Source of the DNA: a virus | Lineage: Duplodnaviria; Caudoviricetes | Direction: 5' to 3' (one strand) | DNA: 53,334 nt | Virus record (IMG/VR): IMGVR_UViG_3300010399_000010 | Span: 1 to 53,334 of that record | Shown here: positions 25,143-49,697 of the stretch, piece by piece | Position numbering within the stretch: the stretch's first letter is position 1 | How the letters are laid out: each line of letters opens with the position of its first letter | Translations under genes and position numbers: made by a program | Notes under the pieces: model-generated | The model's input: the letters and a program-made list of their open reading frames with translations, nothing else | The model's database searches: none | What the model was told of the DNA's origin: nothing

Positions 25143-25921
25143 GGCGTCCCCCTTTTCGGCGTTCTGGTCCAGGGCGTCACCCCGCCCGGCACGCCCAGCG
25201 CGGCCGCCGTCGCGTACACGCTGGTTGAGGTCGCGTCCAGCCGGGCCTGGATCGCCTGAACGGTCGCCGTGCCGTTGGCGGTCGGTAGCGGCGTCGCGGT
25301 CGCGGGCGCGGCGGTGGGTTGCTCCGGCGCCACGATTGGGGCCGGCACTGCGGGTGGCGGGACGGGCGCGGGCGTGGGCGGGGGCGCCAGATCCGGGAGC
25401 CCCGCTGTCTGGGCCTCCGGCACATCAGCGGCCCGCACCCACAGGCGCCCACTCCCCGCGATGTCAAGCTGGACCCAGGAGGCGCCATACACCGCCGTTG
25501 CCGTGTAGGCCCGCCCGGCCTCGATCGCCCCGATCGGCTCCCCCGCTGGCGCGGAGAAGGCCACGAGCGCGCGGGGCAAGCGGGGCAGCCCGGCGGGGGT
25601 AGGCGTGGCGGGCAGAGCCGTGGGGACCGGCAAGGGCGTCGCGGCCGGCCGGACGGGCTGGACCGGGGCAGCCGTGGCGAGCAGGGCAACGAGGAGCGCG
25701 ACCAGGACCACACCAGCGGCGGCCAGGGCGAGTTGGCGGCGCGGGCGGGACGCGACGGGGGCGGGCGGCGTCTCCACCGCTGGCGCGGGCGTGGCACCAA
25801 CGGCAGCGAGCGAGTCGGAGAGCGCGGCGGCAAAAGCCGTGCCTTCCTCCTGATCAAAACCCGGCGCGCGGATGTGGCCAGCCCCGTTGCGATCGGCGTT
25901 CGTAGGAATCCAGGATGCCAT
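25139..25921 (-). CDS. Single-TM Pro-rich protein with SH3-like domain
   Basis: TM helix, PT linkers, ATAVYGASWVQLDIAGSGRLWV. Confidence 0.72.
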   Translation of the reverse strand: MASWIPTNADRNGAGHIRAPGFDQEEGTAFAAALSDSLAAVGATPAPAVETPPAPVASRPRRQLALAAAGVVLVALLVALLATAAPVQPVRPAATPLPVPTALPATPTPAGLPRLPRALVAFSAPAGEPIGAIEAGRAYTATAVYGASWVQLDIAGSGRLWVRAADVPEAQTAGLPDLAPPPTPAPVPPPAVPAPIVAPEQPTAAPATATPLPTANGTATVQAIQARLDATSTSVYATAAALGVPGGVTPWTRTPKRGTP

Positions 25922-25923
25922 GA

Positions 25924-27174
25924 TTATGCCTCCTCACATTCTGTAAAGTAAAAGCTCCCCTTCGCGTCTTGTTCACGCCCAACCAATCCCGCCCCCTCCC
26001 ACGCCGCGATCCGATCACGTGCGGTGCGTTCCGGCTTGCCCAGAACGCCGGCTAATCTGCCCGCGCTCCACGTCCCCGGTAGTTGAGCGAGTGCCGCCTG
26101 ATACTCCGCCGCGTAGCGCGGCGCATCGCGGCGCATCGCGGCGCATCGCGGCGGGGGCGGTTCGGTGGCGACTGGTGGCGGGGTGGCGGGGATGACGGGG
26201 GCGGCGTCCTGATGCGATCTTTGCGAGTCGTTGTACAATCGCTCGCGCAATTCCCGCAACTCCTCCCGCAGTCCCGCCGCCTCTTCCTCCGACCGTCGCG
26301 CCCGCCGCATCAGCTGCTCGTCAGGCGTGACATAATCTGCCGCATCATCATCCGCAATATCCTCGACATAATCAAGGACCGGCTGGAGTTTGTCGACTCC
26401 GCTCGTCAAGAGGTTCGCGACCTGGCGGTAGCCCGCGATCAATTCCTGATCCGGCACGACCGCCAGATGCGCCTCCACGCCATACATATCCTTCCAGCTC
26501 GCCGCGATGCTGCGTAGCGCGTCCTGCTGGACCCGCGCGAAGCCTCCCAGGATGCCCGCTAGCTCGCGCCGCTGGCTGATCGTGAGGCTTGTCAGATCGG
26601 CATTGAGCAGCGTCACCGCGCGGGCGTAGGCGGCGTGCATGGCCGCCTCTTCCATCCGCATCGCCTGCTCGATCCGCCTGACATGCCGGGCCTGCTCGAT
26701 CTGCGCGATCCATTGCTCCGGCGTCACCACGGTCCAGGACAAGGCCGGCACGAACACGCCGGCAATCAGGCTGGTGATGGTCAGCCAGAGCGCCGATCCC
26801 GTGTCCTTGATATTTGACTGCACACCCCACCAGCCGAGTAGTATCTGCCCAGCATAGTAGGTCAGAAAGAAGGCCAGCCCAACGACCGCAATGTAGCCCG
26901 GTGTGGCAAACGCGGTCTTTTGCAGCAGCCGGCCGGCCGGGCTGCTGGGCAAGAGCATCGACCAGAACAGCGGCAGTACCAGGGCGTAGGCCACGACCAT
27001 CAAAAACGCTTGCAGCGCTTGCGGACTCCAGGGTGTGGCCGGCGCGAGCAGATCGACAAACAGCGAGAGCCAGAAGACCCCCGACCCAATCAGACAGAGC
27101 AGGGCAATCCAGCCCAAGGCCGATCGCCCGACCGTGGCGCGCCGTGCGCGCCCGACAGAGGACTCCGTTTCCAT
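25924..27174 (-). CDS. 4-TM + coiled-coil + C-terminal winged-HTH protein
   Basis: Four N-terminal TM helices; WSAGRLAGVLGKPERTARDRIAAWEGAGLV. Confidence 0.8.
   Translation of the reverse strand: METESSVGRARRATVGRSALGWIALLCLIGSGVFWLSLFVDLLAPATPWSPQALQAFLMVVAYALVLPLFWSMLLPSSPAGRLLQKTAFATPGYIAVVGLAFFLTYYAGQILLGWWGVQSNIKDTGSALWLTITSLIAGVFVPALSWTVVTPEQWIAQIEQARHVRRIEQAMRMEEAAMHAAYARAVTLLNADLTSLTISQRRELAGILGGFARVQQDALRSIAASWKDMYGVEAHLAVVPDQELIAGYRQVANLLTSGVDKLQPVLDYVEDIADDDAADYVTPDEQLMRRARRSEEEAAGLREELRELRERLYNDSQRSHQDAAPVIPATPPPVATEPPPPRCAAMRRDAPRYAAEYQAALAQLPGTWSAGRLAGVLGKPERTARDRIAAWEGAGLVGREQDAKGSFYFTECEEA
26117..26153. repeat. 10-bp tandem repeat (CGCGGCGCAT x3.7) inside a CDS
   Basis: Read directly from the sequence. 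Confidence 0.9.
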
Positions 27175-30294: not shown

Positions 30295-31706
30295 GCTGCC
30301 GCCTCCTTGATCTGTCGCTCCACCGCACTCAACCGATCCGCCAGCCGCGTATAGGTCGTGTCATCCAGGCCCGGCGCCAGGTCGTCGAGCAGTCGCCGCG
30401 CCGCCTGGATGTTCGCCGCACTCGCTGCCGCGCCAGCCGCCTCCAGCGCCGCGATCTGATCGAGGAGGTCAGGCGCGACAGATGGCGTGCGCGTGGGCGG
30501 GGACTCTACCGCGCCCGCGACCGCTTCGCGCAAGCCGAGCCAATCGAACGGGCCAGCGATCAGCTGCATGCCGATCGCGAGCCAGCAGTCGAGCGCGCGG
30601 GCCTGGTCGCGCAGTGGCGTGAGCGCGCTGAGGCTCTCGGCCAGTTGGCCAACCCTCAGCCAGTCGATCGCGCCCGCCGCCCGTGCTCTCGTCTCCCACA
30701 GCTCACACAGCCGCTCCAGCTCGTCCGCATCGCACCACGAAACACCATGCCCAGTCGGCGGCACGATGGGCAGCCGGCCGTCTGATCGCTGCTTCATATA
30801 GTTGATCGTCGCGCCGAGCCCTTCCGCGCGCTCACACACCGCCCGGAGCCGCGCCATGTCGGGATAGCTCGCGCGGGCTTCGTCTTCCTGCTGCTCCTGA
30901 AGCGCCTGGTCCCGATGCGCCAGGCAGCGCTGCTCTGCCCAGCCGGCGATGTTCTCCTTGCCGATCGATTCCTGATCGCACCCTTCGACCGCGCACATGC
31001 GCGGGGCGGTCGCTGCGCAAATGAGGCAGCGCCGGGCGGCCGTTGGCGGGGCCGGCTTGCCTTGGGTGGTCTTCTCGCACCGCGACTCCCAGTAGCCGCC
31101 GCTCTCCGCGCGTCGCCACTGATGCGACTCCAGCGCGTCGGGGTGGGTTTGACCCCAGGTCCAGGCGCCAGCAGTCGCGTCCATTTCCGCCACAGTGGCG
31201 GATTCCAGCCAGAAGGGCGGCGGCAACCCCGCCATAGGGTGTGGGTGCGGCACGCCGTTGATTGTCAGCGCGGGGGCGGGACTGTCCATTTCCGCCACTG
31301 TGGCGGATTTGCCAGTCCCCTTCGCCCGACTCACATCCGCCTTTGTGGGCGGCGTCTCCTGCTCCAAAAGCCGCTGCCGAACCTCTGGCGCGATACTCGG
31401 CTGGGCCAGTTCCCCGGCGACCGTCGCACCGATCCAGTCCGACCTGATCGCCTCAGCGAACTGCGGATCGGCCTCTGCGCGTGCGTGAATGTCGAGTAGG
31501 CGTTTCGCGGTCGACTCGCTCGTCCGGGTCGCCACAAGGAAGATCCCCCACTCGCCATGCTGCGCTTCCGCCCGCGCTTTCGCGAGCCAGGAGGCCGCCT
31601 CCAGAAGCGCGTCGCCGCTGCGCTTCTGCGCGGCAAGGTAGGACCGCGCGATGTCTTGGAGCGACCGGGAGAGGGTCGCGGGGGCTTCCAGAATGATAGC
31701 TGTCAT
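30291..31706 (-). CDS. DUF3102-like DNA-binding protein with Cys/His clusters
   Basis: LLEAASWLAKARAEAQHGEWGIFL...SESTAKRLL; two SATVAEMD repeats; C/H clusters. Confidence 0.72.
   Translation of the reverse strand: MTAIILEAPATLSRSLQDIARSYLAAQKRSGDALLEAASWLAKARAEAQHGEWGIFLVATRTSESTAKRLLDIHARAEADPQFAEAIRSDWIGATVAGELAQPSIAPEVRQRLLEQETPPTKADVSRAKGTGKSATVAEMDSPAPALTINGVPHPHPMAGLPPPFWLESATVAEMDATAGAWTWGQTHPDALESHQWRRAESGGYWESRCEKTTQGKPAPPTAARRCLICAATAPRMCAVEGCDQESIGKENIAGWAEQRCLAHRDQALQEQQEDEARASYPDMARLRAVCERAEGLGATINYMKQRSDGRLPIVPPTGHGVSWCDADELERLCELWETRARAAGAIDWLRVGQLAESLSALTPLRDQARALDCWLAIGMQLIAGPFDWLGLREAVAGAVESPPTRTPSVAPDLLDQIAALEAAGAAASAANIQAARRLLDDLAPGLDDTTYTRLADRLSAVERQIKEAAA
31186..31307. 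repeat. Two copies of the 17-bp palindrome (31186-31202, 31291-31307) inside a CDS
   Basis: TCCGCCACWGTGGCGGA, 105 bp apart. Confidence 0.9.
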
Positions 31707-32905
31707 TGATCGTTCTCCAGTGCGAAATGTGATAAAAGTGGCTGGATTGTGCCGTCGTGGTAGGTTTGTGGGATCAACTCGGTCGCGTCTGGATCGGCAT
31801 CGCTCCAGCGTTGCGGGTAGGTGCGGAGCGCGATCAACTCCCGGATGCGTGCCTCTTCTTCAGCGTTGATCAGATCGATCGGTGGTTGCTCACATGCAGC
31901 CGCGCCGTTCACCTCGGCTTGGATTGCCAGGACCTGGCCCAAAGCCCACTCGCGCGCCGCCAGGGTGAGCGGACCTTTCCGCGATGGATTCGCGCTGTGC
32001 TGGCCGTCCTTGTTTCGCTCGCCGTTCTTTTGCTTGCGATGCTTAAACAGCCGCAACTCCTCGTAGAGTGGACGCAGGCGCTTGAGTGGCGCGAGATACG
32101 ACCAGTGCGGCAGCGAGATCACATGATCAAGTGCCGTGTCCCTGGTCGCGAGCGGACAGCCGATACAGCCGGTGCGGGCGTTCATCTCCAGTGCCTCATC
32201 GCCACCGTACACGTCCGCAACCATCGCCGTAGGCAATCCCCACTGCGGCGCGTAGAACGTCAGCAGATCCCATACGTGACAGACCCGCCAGTGCAGCAGC
32301 GGCGCGAGCGTGTCAGCCACCGCCGCCGGGGTCGCCTCTTGGAACCAACCTTGCCCACACTCCGCGCCATTCTTGCCGCACGAGAGCGCGATCCGCGCAT
32401 CCCTGACCGCGCTTTCCCCCAGGCGCACGCCCGTAAGCATGAGGATTTTTTCGCCCGCCCGCTCGCGCAGTGCCTTGAGCGCGGCAACCATCGGCTCAAC
32501 CTTGAGTTGCGGCGTACACCAGCGCAACGTATTGTTGTTCGGCGGCGGCACCCCGCGACCGAGCATATAGACAAAGTAGCGATCGTCAAGCGCTGGGAGG
32601 ACCACTTGTGTGCGGATGCCGCGCTGAGAGAGTGTACCGAGCATCTGCATGGCACCGAAATGGAGCGGCGGGATCTCCTGGCGGGTATCGGCGTAGAGGG
32701 CTGTGAGCGTCTCCGGTCGCGGGATTTGCCCGCTCTCGATCAGACGCACAACGATAGCGACCTCTGCTGTGCTGTCCTTGCCGCCGCTATAGGCCATGGC
32801 CCAGTGGCGATACTCCGAACCGTAGGACAGGAGACTCTGGCGCGTGAGATCGATCGAGTCCTCAAGCGTCATCCGCTGGTCGTCGAAGAAACCGATCGTC
32901 TTCAT
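31703..32905 (-). CDS. PAPS-reductase-family (DndC-like) protein
   Basis: PP-loop SGGKDS, RWCT..LK, GVRLGES..R, RTGCIGC. Confidence 0.88.
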   Translation of the reverse strand: MKTIGFFDDQRMTLEDSIDLTRQSLLSYGSEYRHWAMAYSGGKDSTAEVAIVVRLIESGQIPRPETLTALYADTRQEIPPLHFGAMQMLGTLSQRGIRTQVVLPALDDRYFVYMLGRGVPPPNNNTLRWCTPQLKVEPMVAALKALRERAGEKILMLTGVRLGESAVRDARIALSCGKNGAECGQGWFQEATPAAVADTLAPLLHWRVCHVWDLLTFYAPQWGLPTAMVADVYGGDEALEMNARTGCIGCPLATRDTALDHVISLPHWSYLAPLKRLRPLYEELRLFKHRKQKNGERNKDGQHSANPSRKGPLTLAAREWALGQVLAIQAEVNGAAACEQPPIDLINAEEEARIRELIALRTYPQRWSDADPDATELIPQTYHDGTIQPLLSHFALENDQ

Positions 32906-33606
32906 ACAAATCGCTCCTGTACTTCTTGATCGGCCCGCCTGGCGCGGTAGCGGCGCGACCGCCACGCCTGGCTGGCGAGCTTGCGGATCATGTCGTCTTC
33001 GTAGTTTGAAAGCGGCGCGACCGCCGGCGAGCACCATGTCTGAATGCCGCCCGCGTTCGTGCGTGCGAGTTCCCACCCCGCCGCGCGGTAGATCGTCCCC
33101 TTGTGCAGCCGCGTGTCGCAGTAGGAGAGCAGCACCTTGATTTGATATGGCTCATCGGGATAGACCGGCGGGCGCGCTCGCAAGTAGTCGTAATTCACCC
33201 GCTCCAGCAGCAGCCGGATCGCGTCCGAGGCCAGGGTCGATCGCGCGACGTTCCGCCGATCGACGAACAGCGGCACGTAGCCCGTCGCAAAAAGATCGCC
33301 GCCGCGTTGCACGCGCGGGGAGAGCCACACCCGCGCGAGATTGAGCACCTCCCAGCGGTCGTACTCAGCACGGCCAGAGCGCACGTCTCTCAGCGACCCG
33401 TAGGTCAGCCGCCCGTCGTAGCACCTGGTTGCTTCGGGCCGGCCGACGATCAGGCACCCGACCGGGAAGTCGATCCCGTCCAACTCCACGAGGTAGGCCA
33501 GCGGGCTACAGCGCGAGTCGACCGGCGCGCGGAGGTAGTGGTGCTGCGCGACCTGGCGCTGCGCCCAGGCAAAGCCCTGCCTATCGGCGATGCGGAGATG
33601 GATCAT
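32902..33606 (-). CDS. Mom-like GNAT DNA-modification protein
   Basis: HHYL, GCLIVGRP, EVLNLARVW, LSYCD..HKGTIYRAAGW. Confidence 0.75.
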   Translation of the reverse strand: MIHLRIADRQGFAWAQRQVAQHHYLRAPVDSRCSPLAYLVELDGIDFPVGCLIVGRPEATRCYDGRLTYGSLRDVRSGRAEYDRWEVLNLARVWLSPRVQRGGDLFATGYVPLFVDRRNVARSTLASDAIRLLLERVNYDYLRARPPVYPDEPYQIKVLLSYCDTRLHKGTIYRAAGWELARTNAGGIQTWCSPAVAPLSNYEDDMIRKLASQAWRSRRYRARRADQEVQERFV

Positions 33607-34715
33607 AGGAGAGCCTCCATGTCGATCTGCACGCCGTTCGTGCGTGTCTCCGCGAGTGCGAGGTACGCGCCGTTCGCCTCGATCCCCAGAAAATCACGCC
33701 CGTAGCGCTCGGCGACTTTCCCAACAGTCGCAGTGCCGCTGAATGGATCGAGGATCGTGTCACCGGGTCGCGTGGAAGCCAGCACGCACGGCTCGACGAG
33801 CGCCTCTGGGAAGGTGGCGAAGTGCGCGCCGGCGTAGGGCGCGGATGGGATGCGCCAGACGGAGCGGCGGTTGCGCGTGCCGCTCCCGATGAACTCACGA
33901 TAGTAGCCGCTGAGCGCGGTCTTGGCCTCGGCGGCCAGTTTGAGCACCTCGGCGGTGTTACCGCCATGTTGGGTCGCGCGCGCCTTGTCAGTATCCGTGA
34001 TACCGGCGGACCGAATGGCAGCCATGTGTGCATCGGTGAGACCAGCCTGATCGGCCAGTTCCTCAGCGCGGCGGCGTTGCGGGCGATCGGCTTGCGCGGA
34101 TGGCTCCCCGATCGCAGCCGCATCGTAGTAGTAGCGCTCGCCAAGAGCGAGCAAAAACAAATACTCGTGTGATCGGGTTGGGCGGTCGTCGACTCGCTCC
34201 GGCATGCAGCTTGGCTTCTCCCAAATACAATCGCAGCGCAAGTACCATCCATCGGCCTGAAGCGCGAGCGCGGCCCGCCAGGGCACCCCATACAAATCCT
34301 TGTCTTTCAGCCCGGCACTGGCGCGCGGTCGTCGGGGGTAGCGCCCCGCTTCGCTCGTGTGATTTTTGTTGCCCGATCGAGCGCCCCACTTGCTCGGCTG
34401 CGCATACGAGTCGCCCAGGTTGAGCCAGAGGACCCCATCAGGTCGTAGCACGGCGCGCACGAGCCGAAAGACATGCACGAGGTGCCCGATGTAGGACAGC
34501 GGATCATCCTCCAGGCCCAGGCAGCACTCGGAGGGCGGAACCGCGACGGGCGGCACACCCGCGAGCGGGGCATAGCTGATCGCTGGCCAGCGCGTGGGCG
34601 GAATGTGATAGTCGCGAAGGCCAAAGTAAGGAGGCGAGCTAATCACGCATTGAACGCTCGCGACGGGGAGCGTGGGCAGCACATCCGTGCAGTCGCCGTG
34701 AATCAGGGTGATCAT
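33603..34715 (-). CDS. Amino (N4C/N6A) DNA methyltransferase, beta class
   Basis: SPPY near the N-terminus; HFATFP and DPFSGTAT near the C-terminus. Confidence 0.93.
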   Translation of the reverse strand: MITLIHGDCTDVLPTLPVASVQCVISSPPYFGLRDYHIPPTRWPAISYAPLAGVPPVAVPPSECCLGLEDDPLSYIGHLVHVFRLVRAVLRPDGVLWLNLGDSYAQPSKWGARSGNKNHTSEAGRYPRRPRASAGLKDKDLYGVPWRAALALQADGWYLRCDCIWEKPSCMPERVDDRPTRSHEYLFLLALGERYYYDAAAIGEPSAQADRPQRRRAEELADQAGLTDAHMAAIRSAGITDTDKARATQHGGNTAEVLKLAAEAKTALSGYYREFIGSGTRNRRSVWRIPSAPYAGAHFATFPEALVEPCVLASTRPGDTILDPFSGTATVGKVAERYGRDFLGIEANGAYLALAETRTNGVQIDMEALL

Positions 34716-34894
34716 CGCGGCACCTCGCCAGGCGCGTAGGCGTGCGACTCCGTTTCGGAGTGCTTGACCAGCACGCTCCATCTGAGTGCCGCGCTCACCC
34801 GCTCGACAATCCCCCAGCGCTCGGACTGCGGATGGTAGACAAGTTCGCTGCCCTGGAGGAGGCGCGGCTGGTCGCGGTTGATGTAGCCGATCAT
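34712..34894 (-). CDS. Hypothetical protein
   Basis: ATGA coupling at both ends. Confidence 0.55.
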   Translation of the reverse strand: MIGYINRDQPRLLQGSELVYHPQSERWGIVERVSAALRWSVLVKHSETESHAYAPGEVPR

Positions 34895-35235
34895 AAGCTC
34901 ATCTCCTGTTGCCCCGCCGCGACCTTCTTCGCCCGCCGGGTCCGGGCCGCGTTCGCGATGTGGAGCGGCAGATCGCGCGCGAGATGACAGCGACTACAGA
35001 GCGCGAGCAAATTCTCGCGCCGCACGTCTAGCTTGTCGTGCGGGTCGCCGGGGGAGCCATCCGGCTTCGCGACGCCGATGTGATGCACGCTCATCGTGCG
35101 GCGGTGCGTGTCAAAGGGCTCATCCGGCGTGCGGCACTGCATGCCGCAGTCCTCGCAGATGTAGCGGGCTTCCGCCTTGATGCGGGCGGCGATCTCGCGC
35201 CAGTCAGGGGGGTATTTCGATGGGTCCATCGGCAT
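34891..35235 (-). CDS. HNH endonuclease
   Basis: CEDC...VHH...NLLALCSRCH. Confidence 0.88.
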   Translation of the reverse strand: MPMDPSKYPPDWREIAARIKAEARYICEDCGMQCRTPDEPFDTHRRTMSVHHIGVAKPDGSPGDPHDKLDVRRENLLALCSRCHLARDLPLHIANAARTRRAKKVAAGQQEMSL

Positions 35236-35241
35236 GATCGT

Positions 35242-35601
35242 CTAACTCCTATCGCCACAAGGGTCGCGAAGCGTGGTCAACTCCGCCTCCAGCCGCGCCG
35301 CCTTCACCGCCGGTGATTCGCCGTTCGCCCACTGGACCGTGATCCGCACGGGGCGCAATCCGCGATCAGGGCGCGGCAGCAGATCGAACTCAAGATAGTT
35401 TTTCGCATCGTGCGCATCTAGGAGGCTTGCGGCCTGATCGGCGAAAATCGCCACCGCCGGTGCGACGGCCAAGAGCGTGATTCCCTCCGGTGTGGCATGC
35501 GCCTCTTTCAGGCCAAACTGTCGTAGCTCGTCACTTACGGCAGCGCGGCCCGCGCGCCAGTCGAGCCACCACCCTGCGAGCTTGTCTATCAAATGCAGCA
35601 T
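35242..35601 (-). CDS. Hypothetical protein
   Basis: AAAGGA RBS; in operon. Confidence 0.6.
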   Translation of the reverse strand: MLHLIDKLAGWWLDWRAGRAAVSDELRQFGLKEAHATPEGITLLAVAPAVAIFADQAASLLDAHDAKNYLEFDLLPRPDRGLRPVRITVQWANGESPAVKAARLEAELTTLRDPCGDRS

Positions 35602-35616
35602 TGTCTTTTGTCCTTT

Positions 35617-35931
35617 TCATTGAGGTGTTCTTGTCCACTCAGTATGGCTGGCTCCAGCCTCTGGCGGGGCCGCACTTCGGGAATCTTCGGCTGCCTCGCT
35701 CTGCTGCTCGGCAGTCCAGGCTGACGCCCAGAATTTCGCCCACCAGAGCGCGGTCCCAAGAATCTCTTCCGCCTCTCCCTGCGTCATGTCGGGCCATTCC
35801 GCGATCAGGAACAGCAGCAGGCGCGCGGCGCGAGCGTCAACGTGGTCAGCGATGACTCGGAGCGGCTGGAGCGTGAGGCACTCCGGCTGCTCAATACTCT
35901 GGATCTGTTCGTAAAACTCGCGTGGTTTCAT
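35617..35931 (-). CDS. Hypothetical protein
   Basis: ATGA coupling to the C5 MTase gene. Confidence 0.6.
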   Translation of the reverse strand: MKPREFYEQIQSIEQPECLTLQPLRVIADHVDARAARLLLFLIAEWPDMTQGEAEEILGTALWWAKFWASAWTAEQQSEAAEDSRSAAPPEAGASHTEWTRTPQ

Positions 35932-37070
35932 GGGAGACTCTCCATAATCCTTTGGGCCAGCAGGCATGGGACACCATTCCCATTGATCTCGCTGGTCAGG
36001 CCCCGGTAGCTATCCGGGACGGTCTGGAATCGGGAGAGCGCCTGCACGGTCATCCTGACCCAGCGGCCCGCAATGGAGGCGCGTGGAGGCGCGCCTCCAT
36101 TCTGTCCAGCCCGTACACTCACCGCCGGCTCGTCTTCGTACCGAATCTGCACGCCCGATCCGGCGCTGGCCGACTGGTCACTGATCAGGAAGGCCCTGGT
36201 ACATCCTTTATTGCTGCTCGTCACGGTGAAGGATGGCGCGACGGGAACGCGCCATCCTTCACCGTTCCCGCCCGCGTTCTCGCCAGAAAGGATGTAGGCG
36301 CGCATCCCCGTCTGATTGCCGTTGCTCGTGATCGTGTAGGCTGGCTCGTGGCCGTCGCGGCCATGCTGCTGATACTCATTGCCCTTATGGTCCCGGCTAA
36401 TCCCCTGGTGGAATAGGAGACTCGCGCGGAGTTCGGCGGGCAACCGCGCGAGTTGCCAGGGCGCCGGCTCGGTCGCCGGGAGCGAGTCGACCAGATCGGC
36501 GATCGCCGACAACCACCCCGCCCACGGCGCCACGCCGAGGCCACCGCCCCGCCGATGCGTTTGCATCGGCCAGCGCGGCCTCACTCGCCAGTCGCGCTGG
36601 ACGGCCAGCAGAATGAGGCGCTTGCGCGTTTGGGGCACCCCATAGTCGGCGCTGTTGAGGTGCCGATACTCGTGCGCGAAGCCCGCCCGATCGAGCGCGG
36701 CCAGGATGCGCTGGAACGACTCGAAGGTGCGATAGCCCCAGACGTTTTCTAATGAAAAACTCCGCCCCTGATGTGCTTCTATCGCCCATCCGATCGCATC
36801 CGCGACAGAGCGATCCTCCAGCGTCTCCACGCCCTGACTGGCCTGGCTGGCGTTCTTGCACGACGGACTCGCGTGCAGGTGATCGACCGGGATAAGCGAG
36901 TCGAAGTCGATCGCGCAAATGTCAGCGGTCCTGACATCCAGTCCGTTCAGGCGCGCGACCGAGGCGATCCGATCCTCGATTTCGTAGCCGTCCACATGGC
37001 GCCAGCCGGCATGACACGCACCGAGGCCGAAGAGTTCACCGCCGGAGCAGAGTGTACGAAATGTCGGCAT
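35928..37070 (-). CDS. DNA cytosine-C5 methyltransferase
   Basis: LCSGG, SPSC, ENV, YGVPQTRKR, RFQ and GNGVP motifs. Confidence 0.92.
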   Translation of the reverse strand: MPTFRTLCSGGELFGLGACHAGWRHVDGYEIEDRIASVARLNGLDVRTADICAIDFDSLIPVDHLHASPSCKNASQASQGVETLEDRSVADAIGWAIEAHQGRSFSLENVWGYRTFESFQRILAALDRAGFAHEYRHLNSADYGVPQTRKRLILLAVQRDWRVRPRWPMQTHRRGGGLGVAPWAGWLSAIADLVDSLPATEPAPWQLARLPAELRASLLFHQGISRDHKGNEYQQHGRDGHEPAYTITSNGNQTGMRAYILSGENAGGNGEGWRVPVAPSFTVTSSNKGCTRAFLISDQSASAGSGVQIRYEDEPAVSVRAGQNGGAPPRASIAGRWVRMTVQALSRFQTVPDSYRGLTSEINGNGVPCLLAQRIMESLP

Positions 37071-37146
37071 GGTGTTTCCTATGGCAACAGGACCCGCCCC
37101 GCCCACGGCGCTTGAAGTGGGGTCAGGGTCTGCATCGCTTGCTGCA

Positions 37147-42439: not shown

Positions 42440-42558
42440 ATAATACCACGTATGACAAACTTTCGTCAATAGGGTACGAACCATCTTGTTACTACACCGA
42501 GTGATTGTTGAAAGGTTATGCAATGGTTGTTGACAACGATCGCGAGATACACTACCAT
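42440..42558. promoter_or_regulatory. Divergent immunity promoters/operator
   Basis: Leftward TTGACG-18-TATTAT; rightward TTGACA(42530)-17-TACCAT; TGAC-N8-GTCA at 42453-42468. Confidence 0.68.
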
Positions 42559-42582
42559 GCGCCCAGGAGAGAAGGAGCGCGT

Positions 42583-43011
42583 ATGGCCGTGCCTCCGCAA
42601 GGGGATCTGCAATGGCAGGCCCTCGCGAATTTTATTAGCGCCAAATTAGCTGAAAAGGGCTGGAGCGACTCGCGCTTGGCGAAGGAATCCGGCGTGGGCG
42701 GCGCGACGGTTTCGCGCTTACTCAAGGCGCGCCCGCAACAGATCCAACTCCAGACCTTTGTGGCGTTGGCTGGAGCGCTGGAGGTCGAACTGTGGCGGCT
42801 CTTAGAGGTCGCCGGCTACCCGATCGAACAGCCTAGTCCGCCGGCGGAAACAGATCTGCGCTTTGCCCAGCAGCTCGCTCGGCAGCTCGATTCGTTTCCT
42901 GAGTTGCGTCCGATCGTGCGCCTGCTCTTTGATCTGGATGAGGCCGATCGCCGTGCGGTGACGGCGTTTCTGAATGCCCTGGCGACTCTGCGTGACGAGG
43001 ACCGGCAATAA
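42583..43011 (+). CDS. XRE-family immunity repressor
   Basis: WSDSRLAKESGVGGATVSRLL...LAGALEV; divergent from the RHH gene. Confidence 0.88.
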   Translation: MAVPPQGDLQWQALANFISAKLAEKGWSDSRLAKESGVGGATVSRLLKARPQQIQLQTFVALAGALEVELWRLLEVAGYPIEQPSPPAETDLRFAQQLARQLDSFPELRPIVRLLFDLDEADRRAVTAFLNALATLRDEDRQ

Positions 43012-43335: not shown

Positions 43336-44091
43336 ATGCAACGAGCGGCAGCGACAATCGGGGTCCTGGTCGTACTGGTGTTGGCGGGCCGTGTGCTGGC
43401 TCAGGCGCCCGATTGCACGGTGAGCCGGTGCATCTATTTGCCACATATTCAGGCCAATGGCCCAACTGCAACTCCCACGGCGACACCAACCGTGACAAGC
43501 ACGGCAACGCGGACGGCAACCCCGACGCGGACGGCAACACCAACCGCAACGAATACCCCGATCCCAACGTTGCCAGCGGTCAAGAACGGCGACTTCGAGT
43601 TGGGCAGCAACGGCGATTGGAGTGGGTTTGGCAACACGGCGGTAATCGCGAACACTGGATTGGGGGTGACGCCCCGATCGGGCCAGTGGGTCGCGCGGTT
43701 GGGAGCACCGAATACGCTCAGTTCGCTTGGTCAATCGTTTGTATTGCCCGCTGGTCTGTCTGCATACATGCATTTTTACTATCAGATCCGCTCAAGTGAA
43801 CCGTGTGATTTCCTACCTGACTTCGTGCGGATCAGCGTGAATAGCACAGACGTGTACACCGGCTCGCTCTGCATTGCTTTCAACACGGCCAATTGGGGGT
43901 TGTTTACCCTTGATCTGAGCAGCTACGCGGGCCAAACGGTAGATATACAATTTGTTTCCCTGAACTACTCGTCACCAGCCGCGAGTAGCTTCTATATCGA
44001 CGATGTGTCACTTGATCCAACGCCGAGTTTCTCACGCCGCACGGGCGTTCCTGGCCGGCACGGCGCGAGATCGATAGATCCGAGTTGTTAA
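43336..44091 (+). CDS. Secreted protein: signal peptide, YLPHI motif, Thr/Pro linker, CBM-like beta-sandwich
   Basis: NGDFE...DLSSYAGQTV.IQF...FYIDDVSL. Confidence 0.8.
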   Translation: MQRAAATIGVLVVLVLAGRVLAQAPDCTVSRCIYLPHIQANGPTATPTATPTVTSTATRTATPTRTATPTATNTPIPTLPAVKNGDFELGSNGDWSGFGNTAVIANTGLGVTPRSGQWVARLGAPNTLSSLGQSFVLPAGLSAYMHFYYQIRSSEPCDFLPDFVRISVNSTDVYTGSLCIAFNTANWGLFTLDLSSYAGQTVDIQFVSLNYSSPAASSFYIDDVSLDPTPSFSRRTGVPGRHGARSIDPSC

Positions 44092-44556: not shown

Positions 44557-44644
44557 AGTATACACACATATAGGAAAGTTGTCAAGTGTATTATCGTCTT
44601 TTTACGATAAAGCCCTTGACGACAAGAGTAGACAGATGTATAAT
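44557..44644. promoter_or_regulatory. Back-to-back strong promoters
   Basis: Minus strand TTGACA-17-TATACT (44557-44585); plus strand TTGACG-17-TATAAT (44616-44644). Confidence 0.85.
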
Positions 44645-44688: not shown

Positions 44689-44904
44689 ATGACCCGCACA
44701 CCGCACTTCACCGGCAAGCACGGCACCCGCAACTACCGCCAATGGCTGATCGACGAGCCAAAGCGCGCCATCGCCCAGGCTCGGGCCGAAGCGAACGCGA
44801 GCCAGACGCTACTAGAGAACGCGCTGGAGCGGGCGGGTGAGCTGTTCGTGGCCGGGCGGTGGAGCGAGGCCAGGGCGATGCTGGCGCTGGCGATGGAAGG
44901 GTAG
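44689..44904 (+). CDS. Hypothetical early protein
   Basis: First ORF after the promoter. Confidence 0.6.
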   Translation: MTRTPHFTGKHGTRNYRQWLIDEPKRAIAQARAEANASQTLLENALERAGELFVAGRWSEARAMLALAMEG

Positions 44905-44914
44905 ACACGAAGGC

Positions 44915-45244
44915 ATGGCAACACCGAAGATCGACACCTATTTCGCGTCGCTCCATGGGACCGACACCCGCGCCGAAGAGAAGGCGCGGCATATCGGGAA
45001 TACACCGGAACTGCTGCATGAGTTATTCCTTGATACTTTGACGCTCTGCAAGGACAACATTCGAGCGGAGTTCAAAAAGGCGCGCTTCGACTTCGAGCGA
45101 CGGGCGCTGATCAGTAAGAACATGGCGATGTACTGGCGGTTGCGTGAGGACCCGGACAAACCGGAGAGCCTGCACAACCAGCAGACATCGCTCGGATTGA
45201 TTGTTTTCTACCGCGTCGCTGATGCGTGGAGTCGACACCGATAA
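44915..45244 (+). CDS. Hypothetical protein
   Basis: In operon. Confidence 0.55.
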   Translation: MATPKIDTYFASLHGTDTRAEEKARHIGNTPELLHELFLDTLTLCKDNIRAEFKKARFDFERRALISKNMAMYWRLREDPDKPESLHNQQTSLGLIVFYRVADAWSRHR

Positions 45245-45257
45245 AGGAGCCACCCCG

Positions 45258-45791
45258 ATGCAGACCACCCTCACGATCAACGAGCCGCGACTCCAGGCCA
45301 CGGTTATCACCGTCACCGCCGAGAGCCGCGCCGAGATCCTGCTCTACACCCCGCCGGGCGAACTGGCCAACACCTGGTACGCGCTCCTCGTGGACGGTCG
45401 GTATTACCACCTCATCATGTGGAAGCACACGATCGGGAGAGCGGAGACGATCGACTCGCTCGATCGGGTGCTGGTCCAGGTCCAGCGGGCCATCGCGGCA
45501 CTCCAGCCGCCGCCCATCCCGACGCTCCTACCGCAGCGTGACATCGTGCGCGACGCCGAAAGCGGCGACTACGCGATGTACCTGGATGGCGAGCTGGTCG
45601 GGTTCGCCCGCACCGCCCACGAGGGAGAGACGACGTTGGATGAGCTGATCTACAGCCGGCTGGCGCATCGCCCGCTCACCAAAGCGGAGACGCTCGCCGC
45701 CGATATGGTGGCACGCGACCCCGATCTGCACTTTGCCCAGGCGCTCGATCTGGCGCGGGCGAAGCTCGACACGACGATGGATGCGGCGTAA
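45258..45791 (+). CDS. Hypothetical protein
   Basis: AAGGAG RBS; DYAMYLDGELVGFART motif. Confidence 0.65.
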   Translation: MQTTLTINEPRLQATVITVTAESRAEILLYTPPGELANTWYALLVDGRYYHLIMWKHTIGRAETIDSLDRVLVQVQRAIAALQPPPIPTLLPQRDIVRDAESGDYAMYLDGELVGFARTAHEGETTLDELIYSRLAHRPLTKAETLAADMVARDPDLHFAQALDLARAKLDTTMDAA

Positions 45792-45797
45792 GTCAAA

Positions 45798-45814
45798 TCC
45801 GCCACTGTGGCGGA
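45798..45814. promoter_or_regulatory. 17-bp palindrome TCCGCCACTGTGGCGGA (copy 4 of 4)
   Basis: Intergenic, next to an RBS. Confidence 0.8.
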
Positions 45815-45830
45815 ATTGGAGGGACGAGCT

Positions 45831-46130
45831 ATGATTATCATTGAACTCACCGGCGGCAGCATTGTGCTGCGGAGCGAGGCCGGCCAGGTGATTCGCGTTC
45901 CCCTGGCCGAGGCCCCGCGCCTGATCGCCAAAGCCCTGGAGGCGCTCGGTGTCTCCGGCACGCGCTATCAGCAGGGATGGCGGGCGGGTCGGGCCGTGGG
46001 CTATCAGGACGGGCTGGCGCAAGGATACGCCCAGCGCGACAGGGAATATGTCATCAGTGCCGATCGGGCGCGGCAGCAGGCGCTTGACGAGGCGCTAGAG
46101 CTGCTCGCGGAGAAGGCCAAGGCGGCGTAG
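45831..46130 (+). CDS. Hypothetical protein with GxxxG repeats
   Basis: YQQGWRAGRAVGYQDG; GGAGG RBS. Confidence 0.6.
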   Translation: MIIIELTGGSIVLRSEAGQVIRVPLAEAPRLIAKALEALGVSGTRYQQGWRAGRAVGYQDGLAQGYAQRDREYVISADRARQQALDEALELLAEKAKAA

Positions 46131-46149
46131 AACAGCAAAGGAGACGATC

Positions 46150-46359
46150 ATGGACATTCCAACAATGTACGAAAAAGCGCGGAAACTACTTCTAGAGGAA
46201 CAGCCCGCGATCTACGCTCTGGGACCACAGCACCCAGACTACCAGAAGGCACTTATCGCGATCGTCGATCGCCTGACGCGCACCAACCAGGAGGCATGGG
46301 AAGCGGCGGACAGGCGACGCCTGGCCAGGAACCAGGAATCGGGAAACCAGGAAGTGTAA
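46150..46359 (+). CDS. Hypothetical protein
   Basis: AAGGAG RBS. Confidence 0.6.
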   Translation: MDIPTMYEKARKLLLEEQPAIYALGPQHPDYQKALIAIVDRLTRTNQEAWEAADRRRLARNQESGNQEV

Positions 46360-46400
46360 GATATCCCGGCCAACCGATCCTTATGAAAGTGAGCCCCACC

Positions 46401-46847
46401 ATGACCGATCGACCCATCCCCTCCCGTAAGAACATGAGCGCCCCCGGTGCCGCCGTTCGTCCCGGCACGCGCGCGAGCGGCCCTGTCACGGCAGACGATG
46501 CGCCGGCCGACAGTGACCCGATGCAGTTTGACCAGCCGCCGGACGAGCCGCCCAGTCCACCCCGCCCGGCCCCAACCTTCACCATCCATGCACTCCTTGA
46601 CGATTTCCCGCTCGACGTGTCCTTCAGCGGCACCGCCGAGCAGCTCGCCGCCACGATCAGGCGACTCCGAGAGATCGGCGCGGTGCCACCCACACCAGCG
46701 GCGCGCCAGGCAGTTGAGGAAGAGAAACAGCGCACGGCCCCGATCTGCGAGTTCCACGGGCCGATGAAGGAAAGCACGAAGGCACCGGGGACCTGGTTCT
46801 GCACGAAGAAAATGGGCGATGGCAGCTACTGCAAGAGCAAGGCGTAA
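46401..46847 (+). CDS. Protein with C-terminal C-H-C-C zinc finger
   Basis: PICEFHGPM...WFCTKK...YCK. Confidence 0.68.
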   Translation: MTDRPIPSRKNMSAPGAAVRPGTRASGPVTADDAPADSDPMQFDQPPDEPPSPPRPAPTFTIHALLDDFPLDVSFSGTAEQLAATIRRLREIGAVPPTPAARQAVEEEKQRTAPICEFHGPMKESTKAPGTWFCTKKMGDGSYCKSKA

Positions 46848-46851
46848 CGCT

Positions 46852-47178
46852 ATGACCGATTGCGCATCTATCCGCGCCTCCGTCGCCGCCCTGCTCACCC
46901 GGCCCGGCGCGACCATCAGCGCCAGTGTGGCCTCGCATATCGCGGGCTGCGCGGTGTGTCGCGGCGCGCTCGCCCTCCTGGCGGCAGAACTGGTGCCGAT
47001 GCCGCCGGTCGTGCCGATTCTGTGTGATGACGCGGATCTGGCCGGCTTCCTGGACCTGGAGGGGGAAGCCGGCACGCTCGCGGCTGTCCAGGAGCAGCCA
47101 GGGACGTGGTGGCATCTGTGGTTGTGTGACGACTGCGCGACGGCCTACGCGCGGTTTCAGACATTGAGGGAGGCGTGA
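46852..47178 (+). CDS. Tandem zinc-binding anti-sigma (ZAS)-like protein
   Basis: Two HxxxCxxC motifs (HIAGCAVC, HLWLCDDC), each with an upstream Cys. Confidence 0.68.
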   Translation: MTDCASIRASVAALLTRPGATISASVASHIAGCAVCRGALALLAAELVPMPPVVPILCDDADLAGFLDLEGEAGTLAAVQEQPGTWWHLWLCDDCATAYARFQTLREA

Positions 47179-47180
47179 GC

Positions 47181-47564
47181 ATGGAACTTGGAACGATCGC
47201 CGATGCGCTCGGTATCGCCGGCGCACTCTTCGCCTTGCTCGCCTGGATTCAGGCGCGCGGGACCCGGCGGGACGCAGCGAAGGAGCGGGCACGCCAGCAG
47301 GAACGGATCGACCTGGCGCTACTCCTGACGAGCGCGCAAGAGCAGCGGCTACTCCCCCTGGCGCTTTCTCGGCAAGAGCTGACCCGCGCGGAAGTGCTGG
47401 GCCGGCTCGGCATGTTGCCGATGAAGGAGCTTGGGCGGCGCTTCAGTCTCTCGTATCTCGCCCGCCCAGCCTTCCTAGAGCAACTCCGCGCGGCGCAAGC
47501 GGGCGACGGCCCCGCCACGATCGTGATTCCGTGTTCGCGGCAAGAGTTCGATCAGTTCATGTGA
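47181..47564 (+). CDS. Csx23-like membrane protein (N-terminal TM + small cytoplasmic domain)
   Basis: TM helix followed by RQELTRAEVLGRLGM...RFSLSYL...EFDQF; family resemblance is from recall only. Confidence 0.55.
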   Translation: MELGTIADALGIAGALFALLAWIQARGTRRDAAKERARQQERIDLALLLTSAQEQRLLPLALSRQELTRAEVLGRLGMLPMKELGRRFSLSYLARPAFLEQLRAAQAGDGPATIVIPCSRQEFDQFM

Positions 47565-47666
47565 GGCGACGAAGCAGCCGCGCGGGCGGCGGGGGCGCGG
47601 TTTCAGTGGGCGGGGGAGTGGTTGAAAGGTGGGCTGTCCTGACCTGTCGGGAGTGGGAAGTGGGGG

Positions 47667-47702
47667 TTGCAATCTGTGATTGAACAGTGTATAATTCAAT
47701 CA
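47667..47702 (+). promoter_or_regulatory. Promoter with inverted-repeat operator
   Basis: TTGCAA-17-TATAAT; TGATTGAA-N10-TTCAATCA. Confidence 0.8.
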
Positions 47703-49334: not shown

Positions 49335-49662
49335 GTGAGCGCACCTGTCGGTATCCTCCGCTGGGACGCGCGGAGTCGCCAACTGACCATCTCCGAGCTT
49401 ACTGGCGGGGCTCGGCTACCCCCACCAACTCGTGATCGAGCGCGTGGGGGATGGCGGCCTGATCCTCTATCAGGTGGGCGATCCGCGCATCTCGCCAGGC
49501 GCAAAGATCCGCAAGGTCAACTATCCGCAGCGGGCCAAGCCGCGCCTGTCGATCGGGGAAGAGGCGGCAGTCGCGCTGGGACTGATGGGCGGGCGCTACC
49601 AGGCGCGCGTTGAGCGCGGCGCGATCGTCGCGGTGGTGTGGCGGGAAAATGAGCCGTCCTGA
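49335..49662 (+). pseudogene. Probable frameshifted gene
   Basis: GGGGAG RBS and GTG at 49335; the protein-like reading switches to the +1 frame near 49390. Confidence 0.45.
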
Positions 49663-49697
49663 CCTGTTATGGACGGGCGAGCGGGCCAGTTTTGGTA

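What the first reader, a model, noticed from the sequence alone, without database searches (positions are those of the whole stretch)
47181..47564. Orphan Csx23-like cyclic-oligoadenylate-binding membrane protein in a phage with no CRISPR locus
Seen: 127 aa with one N-terminal TM helix and R-QEL-TRAEVLG-x-LGM...RFSLSYL...EFDQF, in the early accessory region; no cas genes or array in the window. From recall, unverified: this matches the architecture and RxxF(S/T)R-type motif of Csx23, a cA4-binding type III CRISPR membrane effector. Inference: a captured host effector reused as a cOA sponge or dominant-negative anti-CRISPR, or as a prophage add-on defence that plugs into host Cas10 signalling.
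Basis: partly seen in the sequence, partly recalled or inferred. Interest (0 to 1): 0.78.

Follow-up and report, generated by a model that had tools for sequence, protein, structure and literature searches.

The report
Lone Csx23 CRISPR effector on phage
A complete temperate phage genome carries, with no other CRISPR gene, an intact copy of Csx23, the membrane protein that bacteria use to sense the CRISPR alarm molecule cA4, so the phage probably plugs into or interferes with its host's CRISPR signalling.

Summary
ORF 47181-47564 (+) encodes 127 aa with one N-terminal membrane helix and a Csx23-type C-terminal domain. It matches the PADLOC Csx23 profile at E=1.9e-22 and PDB 8qjk, the V. cholerae Csx23 domain with cA4, at E=8.1e-6. 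The AF2 model (pLDDT 97.6) has that entry as its only Foldseek hit (TM 0.87). The published cA4-contact residues R95/R110/F111 align with R69/R87/F88. A homotetramer is predicted (0.74 against 0.00 for controls).

The window is a whole 53-kb temperate siphovirus-like genome with terminal repeats. No cas gene, cyclase or array was found in it.

Cellular homologues lie beside type III CRISPR genes in 23 of 41 loci. Two other phage contigs carry copies. The three phage copies group together in the tree (94/88) and show purifying selection (dN/dS about 0.2).

Family membership is secure. The role is inferred. The leading reading (0.4) is a stand-alone cA4-gated effector fed by the host's Cas10. 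The main rival (0.25) is an anti-CRISPR decoy.

This is a new variant of a known kind, of moderate to high interest.

The parts
47181..47564 (+). csx23-like gene (127 aa plus stop codon)
   Evidence: for the ORF. PADLOC Csx23 PDLC01550 E=1.9e-22, residues 18-126 against profile positions 2-100 of 102. PDB 8qjk_A E=8.1e-6. AF2 pLDDT 97.6. Foldseek 8qjk_A E=5.1e-6, TM 0.87.
47193..47255 (+). Single transmembrane helix (about residues 5-25) with the small-residue motif GIAGALFALLAW. It continues as a basic stalk helix to residue 39.
   Evidence: Hydropathy peak of 1.92 for residues 5-23. AF2 helix 2-39. Residues 3-32 lie in the predicted tetramer interface. A15, F17, A18, A21 and W22 are invariant in the 19-sequence alignment.
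47301..47561 (+). Cytoplasmic Csx23 C-terminal (ligand-binding) domain, residues 41-127
   Evidence: The secondary-structure order E42-49, E54-63, H69-77, H91-107, E112-118, H120-124 matches the published description of the Csx23 C-terminal domain. Aligned with 8qjk over residues 46-126.
47385..47387 (+). Codon of R69, the counterpart of V. cholerae Csx23 R95 (contacts the cA4 phosphate; R95A abolishes binding). E71 is the counterpart of E97.
   Evidence: Alignment. Paper sections read. R69 is invariant in the 88-sequence alignment. R69 and E71 touch across subunits in the tetramer model.
47439..47444 (+). Codons of R87 and F88, the counterparts of R110 and F111, which sandwich the adenine on the lid loop
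   Evidence: Alignment. Paper sections. R87 is at least 90% conserved in the 88 sequences. R87 is invariant in all three smaller alignments; F88 is invariant in the 12- and 7-sequence alignments and nearly invariant (at least 90%) in the 19-sequence one.
47166..47173 (+). Shine-Dalgarno-like GAGGGAGG, 7 nt before the ATG. The upstream ORF's stop codon is at 47176-47178.
   Evidence: Read directly.
46852..47178 (+). Upstream neighbour, a small Cys/His protein with an HxxxCxxC motif, ending 2 nt before the csx23 ATG. It is not conserved beside csx23 in the other phages.
   Evidence: No Pfam hit. The nearest ESM Atlas clusters are 'zinc-finger' and zf-HC2 clusters, mostly from Chloroflexota, with scores 0.93 and 0.90; this is a lead only. 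No homologue was found in L044 or L043.
44616..44644 (+). Promoter-like site (TTGACG-17-TATAAT, 11 of 12), divergent from one at 44585-44557 (-). It is the probable start of the closely packed operon 44689-47564, of which csx23 is the last gene.
   Evidence: 5 sites found against 1.3 expected in the region, and none lies between 44644 and csx23. This is a consensus match only.
47667..47695 (+). Promoter-like site (TTGCAA-17-TATAAT) about 100 nt after the csx23 stop codon, marking the start of the next transcription unit
   Evidence: It shares the upstream word GTCCTGACCTGT with the 12-of-12 promoter at 49698.

Best explanation
The gene encodes a genuine, intact Csx23-family protein. Four copies assemble through their single N-terminal membrane helices into a tetramer. 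The four cytoplasmic C-terminal domains then enclose one molecule of cyclic tetra-adenylate (cA4), held by R69 (phosphate) and R87/F88 (adenine). Ligand binding perturbs the membrane bundle and arrests or depolarises the cell, as described for V. cholerae Csx23.

The phage has no Cas10, so the signal must come from a type III CRISPR system of the host, which is probably a member of Chloroflexota. The most likely role is a stand-alone add-on effector. In a cell that carries this temperate phage, any invader detected by the host's Cas10 would also trigger the phage's Csx23, which would serve superinfection exclusion or conflict between mobile elements.

What is shown: family membership, fold, conserved ligand residues, purifying selection, and the absence of cas genes. 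What is inferred: cA4 as the ligand, membrane action, dependence on host Cas10, and the benefit to a lysogen.
For: Homology and fold
- PADLOC Csx23 E=1.9e-22.
- PDB 8qjk E=8.1e-6.
- It is the only Foldseek PDB hit at E<=1e-3 among 346 matches at E<=10: TM 0.87, rmsd 2.1 A.

Ligand residues: R95, E97, R110 and F111 of the solved protein align with R69, E71, R87 and F88 (paper sections).

Tetramer: score 0.74 against a best control of 0.00. The mark was reached by 20 of 30 solved homo-pairs and 1 of 23 single chains. The runs agree in at least 92% of their contacts, and pLDDT is at least 82. The interface includes residues 3-32 and an R69-E71 contact. A like tetramer has been solved, so this pass may reflect likeness.

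The membrane domain is essential for Csx23 immunity (paper). Here it is retained, and it is as conserved relative to the C-terminal domain as in CRISPR-linked cellular homologues: 15 pairs in the phage clade gave z from -0.84 to +2.0 against 171 cellular pairs.

Selection: dN/dS between the window copy and the L044 copy is 0.21 overall, 0.36 for the membrane helix plus stalk and 0.15 for the C-terminal domain.

Cellular homologues: 23 of 41 loci have type III Cas7 or Cas10 within 10 kb, and 28 of 41 have some CRISPR marker.

The phage is temperate in make-up, with an integrase, an excisionase-like HTH gene and a Cro/CI-type HTH gene.

Precedent: the characterised Csx23 is itself encoded on a prophage, and its authors suggest a role in conflict between mobile elements (Discussion).

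Host side: Cas10 was found in 74 of 401 sampled Chloroflexota genomes, one of which (G268) is unpublished.
Against: - No binding or expression data exist.
- The gene is the last of a closely packed operon that starts at a near-consensus promoter in a divergent switch-like region. That looks more like an early lytic unit than a lysogen-expressed moron, and it has no promoter-like site of its own.
- The host is unknown. None of the 41 genome loci belongs to the phage clade, so no integrated copy was seen.
- A host with type III CRISPR normally already has effectors, so the added benefit may be small.
- The ligand is inferred. Many cellular homologues sit beside fused-Cas7 type III-D genes, and one type III-D2 complex makes SAM-AMP rather than cOA.
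- The protein has one membrane helix per subunit, against two in the studied protein.
Confidence: 0.4

Rival explanations
1. Anti-CRISPR decoy. The protein is made early in infection as a membrane-anchored tetramer that has lost toxicity. It either soaks up cA4 and starves the host's effectors, or it co-assembles with a host Csx23 and poisons it (dominant negative).
For: - It lies in a probable early operon with a strong ribosome-binding site.
- All ligand residues are kept.
- The isolated C-terminal domain of Csx23 is monomeric without cA4, while the full-length protein is a pre-formed tetramer. A decoy would therefore also need its membrane helix.
- Viruses are known to appropriate a cA4 sensor domain as an anti-CRISPR: AcrIII-2, a viral SAVED domain (abstract). 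Viral ring nucleases are also known (passages).
- The phage carries other likely anti-restriction genes: two DNA methyltransferases and a Mom-family hit.
Against: - Four subunits bind one cA4, and Csx23 has no ring-nuclease activity. A membrane-bound sponge would have to be very abundant, whereas the two named type III anti-CRISPRs seen in the papers read here (AcrIII-1, AcrIII-2) are enzymes.
- In AcrIII-2 only the SAVED sensor domain was appropriated. Here the membrane part is kept under the same constraint as in cellular effectors.
- The phage clade is at most about 55% identical to any cellular homologue found, which is poor mimicry for co-assembly.
- No HTH (Aca-like) gene lies next to it.
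Confidence: 0.25
2. Phage eavesdropping, or an 'escape hatch'. The phage uses an intact cA4-gated depolariser during its own lytic cycle. When the host's type III system raises the alarm, membrane depolarisation fires the holin early and releases whatever progeny are already assembled.
For: - The effector architecture is intact and the gene is probably expressed in the lytic cycle.
- cA4 binding perturbs the membrane domain of Csx23.
- That holins fire on loss of membrane potential is established phage biology; this point is recalled, not from a call.
Against: - This is purely inferential.
- The gene is not near the lysis genes.
- Its authors could not show a permeability change for Csx23.
- Early lysis yields few progeny.
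Confidence: 0.1
3. The protein responds to a different nucleotide or a different source. Examples are SAM-AMP-type signals, a CBASS-like product, or an unrecognised phage-encoded cyclase. In that case it is not tied to cA4 or to type III CRISPR.
For: - One type III-D2 complex makes SAM-AMP rather than cOA, and fused-Cas7 type III-D genes flank several homologues.
- A well-supported clade of 7 homologues from small-genome MAGs has no CRISPR marker nearby, and no convincing Cas10 was found in those genomes.
- Many phage ORFs have no known family.
Against: - The three residues that contact cA4 and the four-fold assembly that fits cA4 are conserved.
- No cyclase family was found among the 73 phage ORFs scanned with Pfam.
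- 29 of 41 homologue-bearing genomes have a Cas10 match by at least one of three searches.
Confidence: 0.1
4. Passenger gene. It was picked up from a host CRISPR locus and currently has no role for the phage.
For: - It is rare. With the patterns used, only this record and one other (L043) were found among 2.9 million IMG/VR contigs. There was no match in 50,697 GenBank phage records or 72,556 plasmids.
- It sits at different places in related phages.
Against: - dN/dS is about 0.2 between two phage copies whose tail proteins are only 33-39% identical.
- All family-conserved residues are kept.
- The three phage copies group together (UFboot/SH-aLRT 94/88; 93% of 200 bootstrap trees).
- The gene has a good ribosome-binding site and is tightly coupled to the gene before it.
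Confidence: 0.1

Closest known systems
Csx23 of Vibrio cholerae HE-45 (PDB 8QJK; Gruschow et al. 2024, PMC11014256; sections 21, 23, 24, 25 and 27 read)
   Same: - N-terminal membrane domain plus a C-terminal domain of about 90 aa with the same fold (TM 0.87, 29% identity).
- The same cA4-contact residues.
- A predicted tetramer.
- Also carried by a phage.
   Different: - One membrane helix per subunit instead of two, and 127 aa against about 159 aa.
- The Vibrio gene lies inside a complete prophage-borne type III-B locus with Cas10. Here the phage carries the effector alone.
- The best profile match is the PADLOC model labelled as type III-D associated.
AcrIII-2, a viral SAVED domain taken from CalpL (PMC12751052; abstract and outline seen)
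   Same: A virus-borne copy of a cA4-sensing module from a type III effector, carried without cas genes.
   Different: AcrIII-2 is soluble, lacks the effector domain and degrades cA4. The present protein keeps its effector (membrane) part, and the Csx23 fold showed no ring-nuclease activity.
AcrIII-1/Crn2 and other phage-borne ring nucleases (PMC12409355; passages seen)
   Same: Phage genes aimed at cA4 signalling.
   Different: An unrelated fold that works catalytically. That survey of 28,114 phage genomes looked for ring nucleases only, not for Csx23.
Cam1, Cap1 and Chp1, the CARF-type membrane effectors (PMC12642688, passages seen; the abstract of 10.64898/2026.08.05.743128 seen in a listing)
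   Same: Tetrameric, cA4-gated membrane effectors. Cap1 also binds one cA4 at the centre of the tetramer.
   Different: Their sensor domain is CARF-like, not the Csx23 fold. They are encoded in cellular CRISPR loci.
Virus-borne mini-CRISPR arrays (PMC6858448; listing and start of the abstract seen)
   Same: A solitary CRISPR component on a virus that must rely on the host's Cas machinery and is proposed to act in conflicts between viruses.
   Different: The borrowed part there is the guide array, not a signal-activated effector.

Membership tests
Csx23 protein family (homology) | Significant match to Csx23 profiles over the whole profile | tested here: met
   PDLC01550 E=1.9e-22, profile positions 2-100 of 102. 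PDLC01072 E=8.2e-10.
Csx23 protein family (homology) | C-terminal domain with the Csx23 fold: two strands, two helices, a third strand and a short C-terminal helix | tested here: met
   AF2 pLDDT 97.6. Foldseek 8qjk_A E=5.1e-6, TM 0.87, rmsd 2.1 A, and the only hit at E<=1e-3.
Csx23 protein family (homology) | cA4-contact residues R95, R110 and F111 (or Tyr), plus the E97 partner | tested here: met
   These correspond to R69, R87, F88 and E71 by the alignment. Their roles come from the paper. R69 is invariant, and R87 and E71 are at least 90% conserved, in 88 sequences.
Csx23 protein family (homology) | N-terminal membrane-spanning domain | tested here: met
   One hydrophobic helix, residues 5-25, followed by a basic flank. 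This is one helix where the studied protein has two.
Csx23 protein family (homology) | Homotetramer | tested here: met
   Prediction only: 0.74 against a best control of 0.00. A like complex has been solved, so the pass may reflect likeness.
Csx23 protein family (homology) | Specific binding of cA4 and cA4-dependent perturbation of the membrane domain | not testable with these tools
   Needs purified protein. cA4 is not among the ligands offered by complex prediction.
Type III CRISPR ancillary effector (gene within a cas10 locus) | Encoded beside Cas10, type III Cas7 genes or a CRISPR array | tested here: not met
   No cas gene, cyclase or array was found in the complete 53-kb phage genome. 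The feature is met by cellular homologues in 23 of 41 loci. The phage copy is therefore an orphan member of the protein family, not part of a CRISPR locus.
Anti-CRISPR of type III (AcrIII-like sponge or ring nuclease) | Virus-encoded binder or degrader of cOA that lacks a toxic effector part | tested here: inconclusive
   It is virus-encoded and its binding residues are kept. However, the membrane (effector) part is retained under normal constraint. Ring-nuclease activity could not be tested, and the studied Csx23 has none.
Anti-CRISPR of type III (AcrIII-like sponge or ring nuclease) | Inhibits cA4-activated effectors | not testable with these tools
   Needs co-expression or in vitro assays.

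The most novel reading that the evidence does not exclude
The phage listens in on its host's CRISPR alarm. Its own intact cA4-gated Csx23, made during lytic growth, depolarises the membrane as soon as the host's Cas10 signals. That fires the holin and releases progeny before the host's abortive response takes hold. This would be a virus using a captured immune effector as a sensor for its own decision.
Probability: 0.1. Interest if true: 0.9.

Novelty: new variant of a known kind. Interest (0 to 1): 0.6.

Why it matters
Type III CRISPR signalling is known to be attacked by viral enzymes that destroy cA4, and whole type III systems are known on prophages. I found no report of a virus that carries only the signal receptor and effector, with no means of making the signal. 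The searches were 'Csx23' (29 papers, listing only, of which four were read in part), cA4/sponge/phage-encoded and orphan/CARF/viral genomes. Supplementary tables of the Csx23 and effector-survey papers could not be seen and may list such cases.

Whichever role is true, the protein would show that the second messenger is a shared channel that mobile elements can tap. The candidate roles are an add-on weapon fed by the host's Cas10, a decoy receptor, or an eavesdropping switch.

The protein is small, models with high confidence and has clear point mutants (R69A, R87A), so the alternatives can be separated by simple co-expression assays.

The single-helix form, a four-helix membrane bundle, may also be a simpler system for asking how Csx23 acts on membranes, which its discoverers left open.

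Tried and rejected
- Pfam, PHROGs and NCBIfam gave nothing significant for the protein.
- BFVD viral structures: 0 matches at E<=1e-3.
- GenBank phages and PLSDB plasmids: no tblastn match.
- IMG/VR scans. The first alignment gave a poor pattern and no relative. Two alignments had no usable conserved stretch. Smaller alignments found only one other viral contig.
- RNA evidence: only one DNA run holds the stretch, a soil metagenome that is probably the source. No RNA holder is listed.
- Host by CRISPR spacer: none of the matches of 18 to 47 nt between the phage and the 45 fetched loci (L002-L046) is a spacer hit (7 matches in all).
- Host by prophage: a portal homologue at 41% identity in 1 of 401 sampled Chloroflexota genomes. 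No csx23 or Cas10 was found in that genome. This is a weak pointer only.
- Operators shared between the two divergent regulatory regions, which might have timed expression: none found.
- A conserved partner gene: the upstream zinc-finger-like ORF is not next to csx23 in L043 or L044.
- The second Cas10 model (PDLC01293) also rings in control genomes that I recall as lacking type III systems. Its hits restricted to the N-terminal HD region were therefore discounted; this is my judgement.
- Chance ORF: rejected by the E-values and the codon-position GC.

Full report
**Observation.** The ATG is at 47181, the stop codon ends at 47564, and the product is 127 aa. A GAGGGAGG ribosome-binding site sits 7 nt upstream, and the preceding ORF stops 2 nt before the ATG. 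GC by codon position (0.74/0.48/0.78) is that of a real gene in this 64.5% GC genome. There is one hydrophobic segment, at residues 5-25, followed by a basic stretch. The quoted motifs are all present.

**What the window is.** It is a complete virus record of 53,334 bp with 123-bp direct terminal repeats. It encodes:
- large terminase, portal, head protease, major head protein and tape measure;
- small terminase and an amidase;
- a tyrosine integrase, Prim-Pol, a DnaC/IstB-like ATPase, two DNA methyltransferases and a PAPS-reductase-like protein;
- excisionase-type and Cro/CI-type HTH proteins.

It is therefore a temperate siphovirus-like phage. No cas gene, nucleotide cyclase or ring nuclease turned up among the 73 ORFs scanned with Pfam, the 53 scanned with PADLOC or the 10 scanned with PHROGs. 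No CRISPR-like repeat array was found. Rfam found nothing.

**What the protein is.**
- PADLOC's Csx23 model matches over its whole length (E=1.9e-22, 77 bits). A second Csx23 model matches at 8e-10.
- Against PDB sequences, the only significant hit is 8qjk, the cytoplasmic domain of V. cholerae Csx23 with cA4 (E=8.1e-6).
- An AF2 model built on 88 homologues has pLDDT 97.6. It shows a long helix (residues 2-39) followed by strand-strand-helix-helix-strand-helix, which is the order described for the solved domain.
- Foldseek returns 8qjk_A as the only hit at E<=1e-3: E=5.1e-6, TM 0.87 normalised to the target, rmsd 2.1 A, 29% identity.

[quoted passage not shown] By the alignment, these residues are R69, R87, F88 and E71 here. 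R69 is invariant in 88 family members, and R87 and E71 are at least 90% conserved.

Four copies are predicted to assemble with a score of 0.74, against a best control of 0.00.
- The mark was reached by 20 of 30 solved homo-pairs and 1 of 23 single chains.
- The runs agree in at least 92% of their contacts, and pLDDT is at least 82.
- The interface includes the membrane helices (residues 3-32) and an R69-E71 contact.
- A similar tetramer has been solved, so this shows likeness rather than proof.

The main architectural difference from the studied protein is one membrane helix per subunit instead of two.

**The family elsewhere.** An exhaustive search found 282 representative homologues at E<=1e-3, of which 147 are at E<=1e-10. 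A scan of one genome per species gave 41 loci in many phyla, with Chloroflexota the most frequent among the closest.
- PADLOC on 10 large neighbouring ORFs identified type III-D Cas7 fusions (3), Cas10 (2) and RT-Cas1 (1). One further ORF matched only a TPR-repeat model, and three matched nothing.
- Profiles grown from these seeds in the sandbox found type III Cas7 or Cas10 within 10 kb in 23 of 41 loci. Any CRISPR marker, including Cas1 or an array, was present in 28 of 41 loci. The other 13 have none, and 4 of those 13 are contigs of at most 2.4 kb.
- Counting whole genomes, 29 of 41 have a Cas10 match by at least one of three searches.

The family is therefore linked to type III CRISPR, as the paper says.

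**Other phage copies.** L044 is a 12,969-bp metagenome contig with a copy that is 63% identical. It also encodes homologues of two tail proteins of the window (33-39% identity) and of ORF 25924-27174 (27%), so it comes from a related phage. There, csx23 is the third gene of a different overlapping operon.

L043 is an IMG/VR contig with 52.7% GC and a copy that is 40% identical. It has an SNF2 helicase, an HTH_17 protein and a GpA-type terminase, and shares nothing else with the window.

In a maximum-likelihood tree of 59 rows, the three phage copies fall in one group of 7 (UFboot/SH-aLRT 94/88; 93% of 200 bootstrap trees). Three fragments, L018, L030 and L040, were dropped, and the bootstrap had not fully settled. 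An inner group of 6 has support 96/90. The contexts of the other four rows (P0002, P0005, P0021, P0022) are unknown. None of the 41 genome loci falls in this group.

Between the window copy and the L044 copy, dN/dS is 0.21 (dS 1.6, near saturation), with 0.36 for the helix plus stalk and 0.15 for the C-terminal domain. The membrane segment is as conserved relative to the C-terminal domain as in CRISPR-linked cellular homologues: 15 pairs gave z from -0.84 to +2.0 against a fit to 171 cellular pairs. Ten rows that were fragmentary, long-branched or lacked an aligned N-terminus were left out of that comparison.

No copy was found in 50,697 GenBank phage records or 72,556 plasmids, and no similar fold was found in BFVD.

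**Context in the window.** Promoter-like sites are enriched in this region, with 5 found against 1.3 expected. A divergent pair at 44557-44644 heads an HTH_17 gene on one side and, on the other, a closely packed run of small genes from 44689 to 47564 that ends with csx23. The next promoter-like site follows about 100 nt after the stop codon. This looks like an early operon at a genetic switch, but these are consensus matches only, and no RNA data exist.

The upstream neighbour resembles zf-HC2 zinc-finger proteins of Chloroflexota. This is an Atlas lead with scores 0.93 and 0.90, and the gene is not conserved beside csx23 in the other phages.

**Host.** The host is probably a member of Chloroflexota, on three weak grounds: the closest cellular homologues, a portal homologue in 1 of 401 sampled genomes and the Atlas neighbours. 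Cas10 was found in 74 of 401 sampled Chloroflexota genomes with one model at E<=1e-10; one of the 74, G268, is unpublished.

**Interpretation.** Membership of the Csx23 protein family is secure. The phage cannot make the signal itself as far as these scans show, so the protein must depend on a host Cas10.

My leading reading (0.4) is an intact cA4-gated membrane effector carried as a stand-alone add-on. It would serve the phage as a prophage weapon against superinfecting elements. This agrees with four points:
- the retained and constrained membrane part, which is essential for Csx23 function;
- purifying selection in a phage lineage;
- the temperate gene set;
- the authors' own view of the prophage-borne Vibrio system as a tool of conflict between mobile elements.

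Against it stand the early-operon context, the lack of any evidence for expression in lysogens, and the small added value in a host that already has effectors.

The main rival (0.25) is an anti-CRISPR decoy or dominant negative. It is favoured by the gene's position and by the AcrIII-2 precedent. It is weakened by the 4:1 stoichiometry without turnover and by the absence of any sign that the effector part has decayed.

Less likely readings are a phage-side 'escape hatch' (0.1), a different ligand or source (0.1) and a passenger gene (0.1). The different-ligand reading rests on the finding that a type III-D2 complex makes SAM-AMP.

**Limits.**
- Promoters, the tetramer and the ligand are predictions.

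Noticed in passing
L015, L022, L023, L026, L027, L028, L029 (csx23 at, for example, L029:9920-10348): A strongly supported clade (SH-aLRT 98 in the quick tree) of 7 Csx23 homologues from small-genome MAGs: 3 Saccharibacteria, 1 Kaiserbacteria, 1 Elusimicrobia and 2 others of 0.7-1.0 Mb. None has a CRISPR marker within 10 kb, and no convincing Cas10 was found in these genomes. In 4 of the 7, a divergently oriented TrmB-type HTH regulator lies upstream. This is a second kind of orphan Csx23 whose signal source is unknown.
   Followed up: partly
window 7441-7455, 31187-31201, 31292-31306, 45799-45813: The perfect 15-bp palindrome CCGCCAC[A/T]GTGGCGG occurs 4 times against 0.02 expected. Two copies lie in intergenic spacers just upstream of a ribosome-binding site, and one of these is inside the csx23 operon, between 45791 and the next gene. 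It could be a regulatory hairpin or a protein-binding site. No T-run follows it on the + strand.
   Followed up: partly
window 47636-47647 and 49656-49667: The promoter-like sites at 47667 and 49698 (the latter 12 of 12 to consensus) share the upstream word GTCCTGACCTGT, 31 and 42 nt before their -35 boxes. This suggests a common regulator for these two units that does not act on the csx23 operon promoter.
   Followed up: no
window 43336-44091 (+): A 251-aa protein with a signal-peptide-like N-terminus, a Thr/Pro-rich linker and a weak MAM-like domain hit (E=8.5e-4, below the Pfam cutoff). It lies between the Cro/CI-type HTH gene (42505-43011) and the HTH_17 gene, and is a candidate lysogenic-conversion gene.
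   Followed up: no
window 31703-37106 (-): A cluster of likely DNA-modification genes: a PAPS-reductase-like protein (457 aa), an N6/N4 methyltransferase and a C5 methyltransferase. A Mom-family hit lies somewhere among the 53 ORFs. Together they suggest an anti-restriction arsenal.
   Followed up: no
window 15951-16041 (-): ARAGORN calls a 91-nt tRNA-Lys(CTT) on the strand opposite the tape-measure gene (13339-16230). Its place inside a long ORF and its odd length suggest a false positive.
   Followed up: no
L030:10007-10276, L018:7212-7439: In two MAGs (Ca. Trichofilum and an unclassified bacterium) the csx23 homologue is only an open frame of 75-89 aa, so it is possibly truncated or frameshifted.
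   Followed up: no
L044:1013-3479 and window 24414-27174 (-): In the related phage, csx23 follows homologues of the window's membrane-protein pair (416 aa plus a Pro/Ala-rich protein of about 260 aa). In the window, the third position of that operon is held instead by a multi-helix membrane protein with a C-terminal Cys cluster (24414-25142). This looks like a variable membrane-protein cassette.
   Followed up: no
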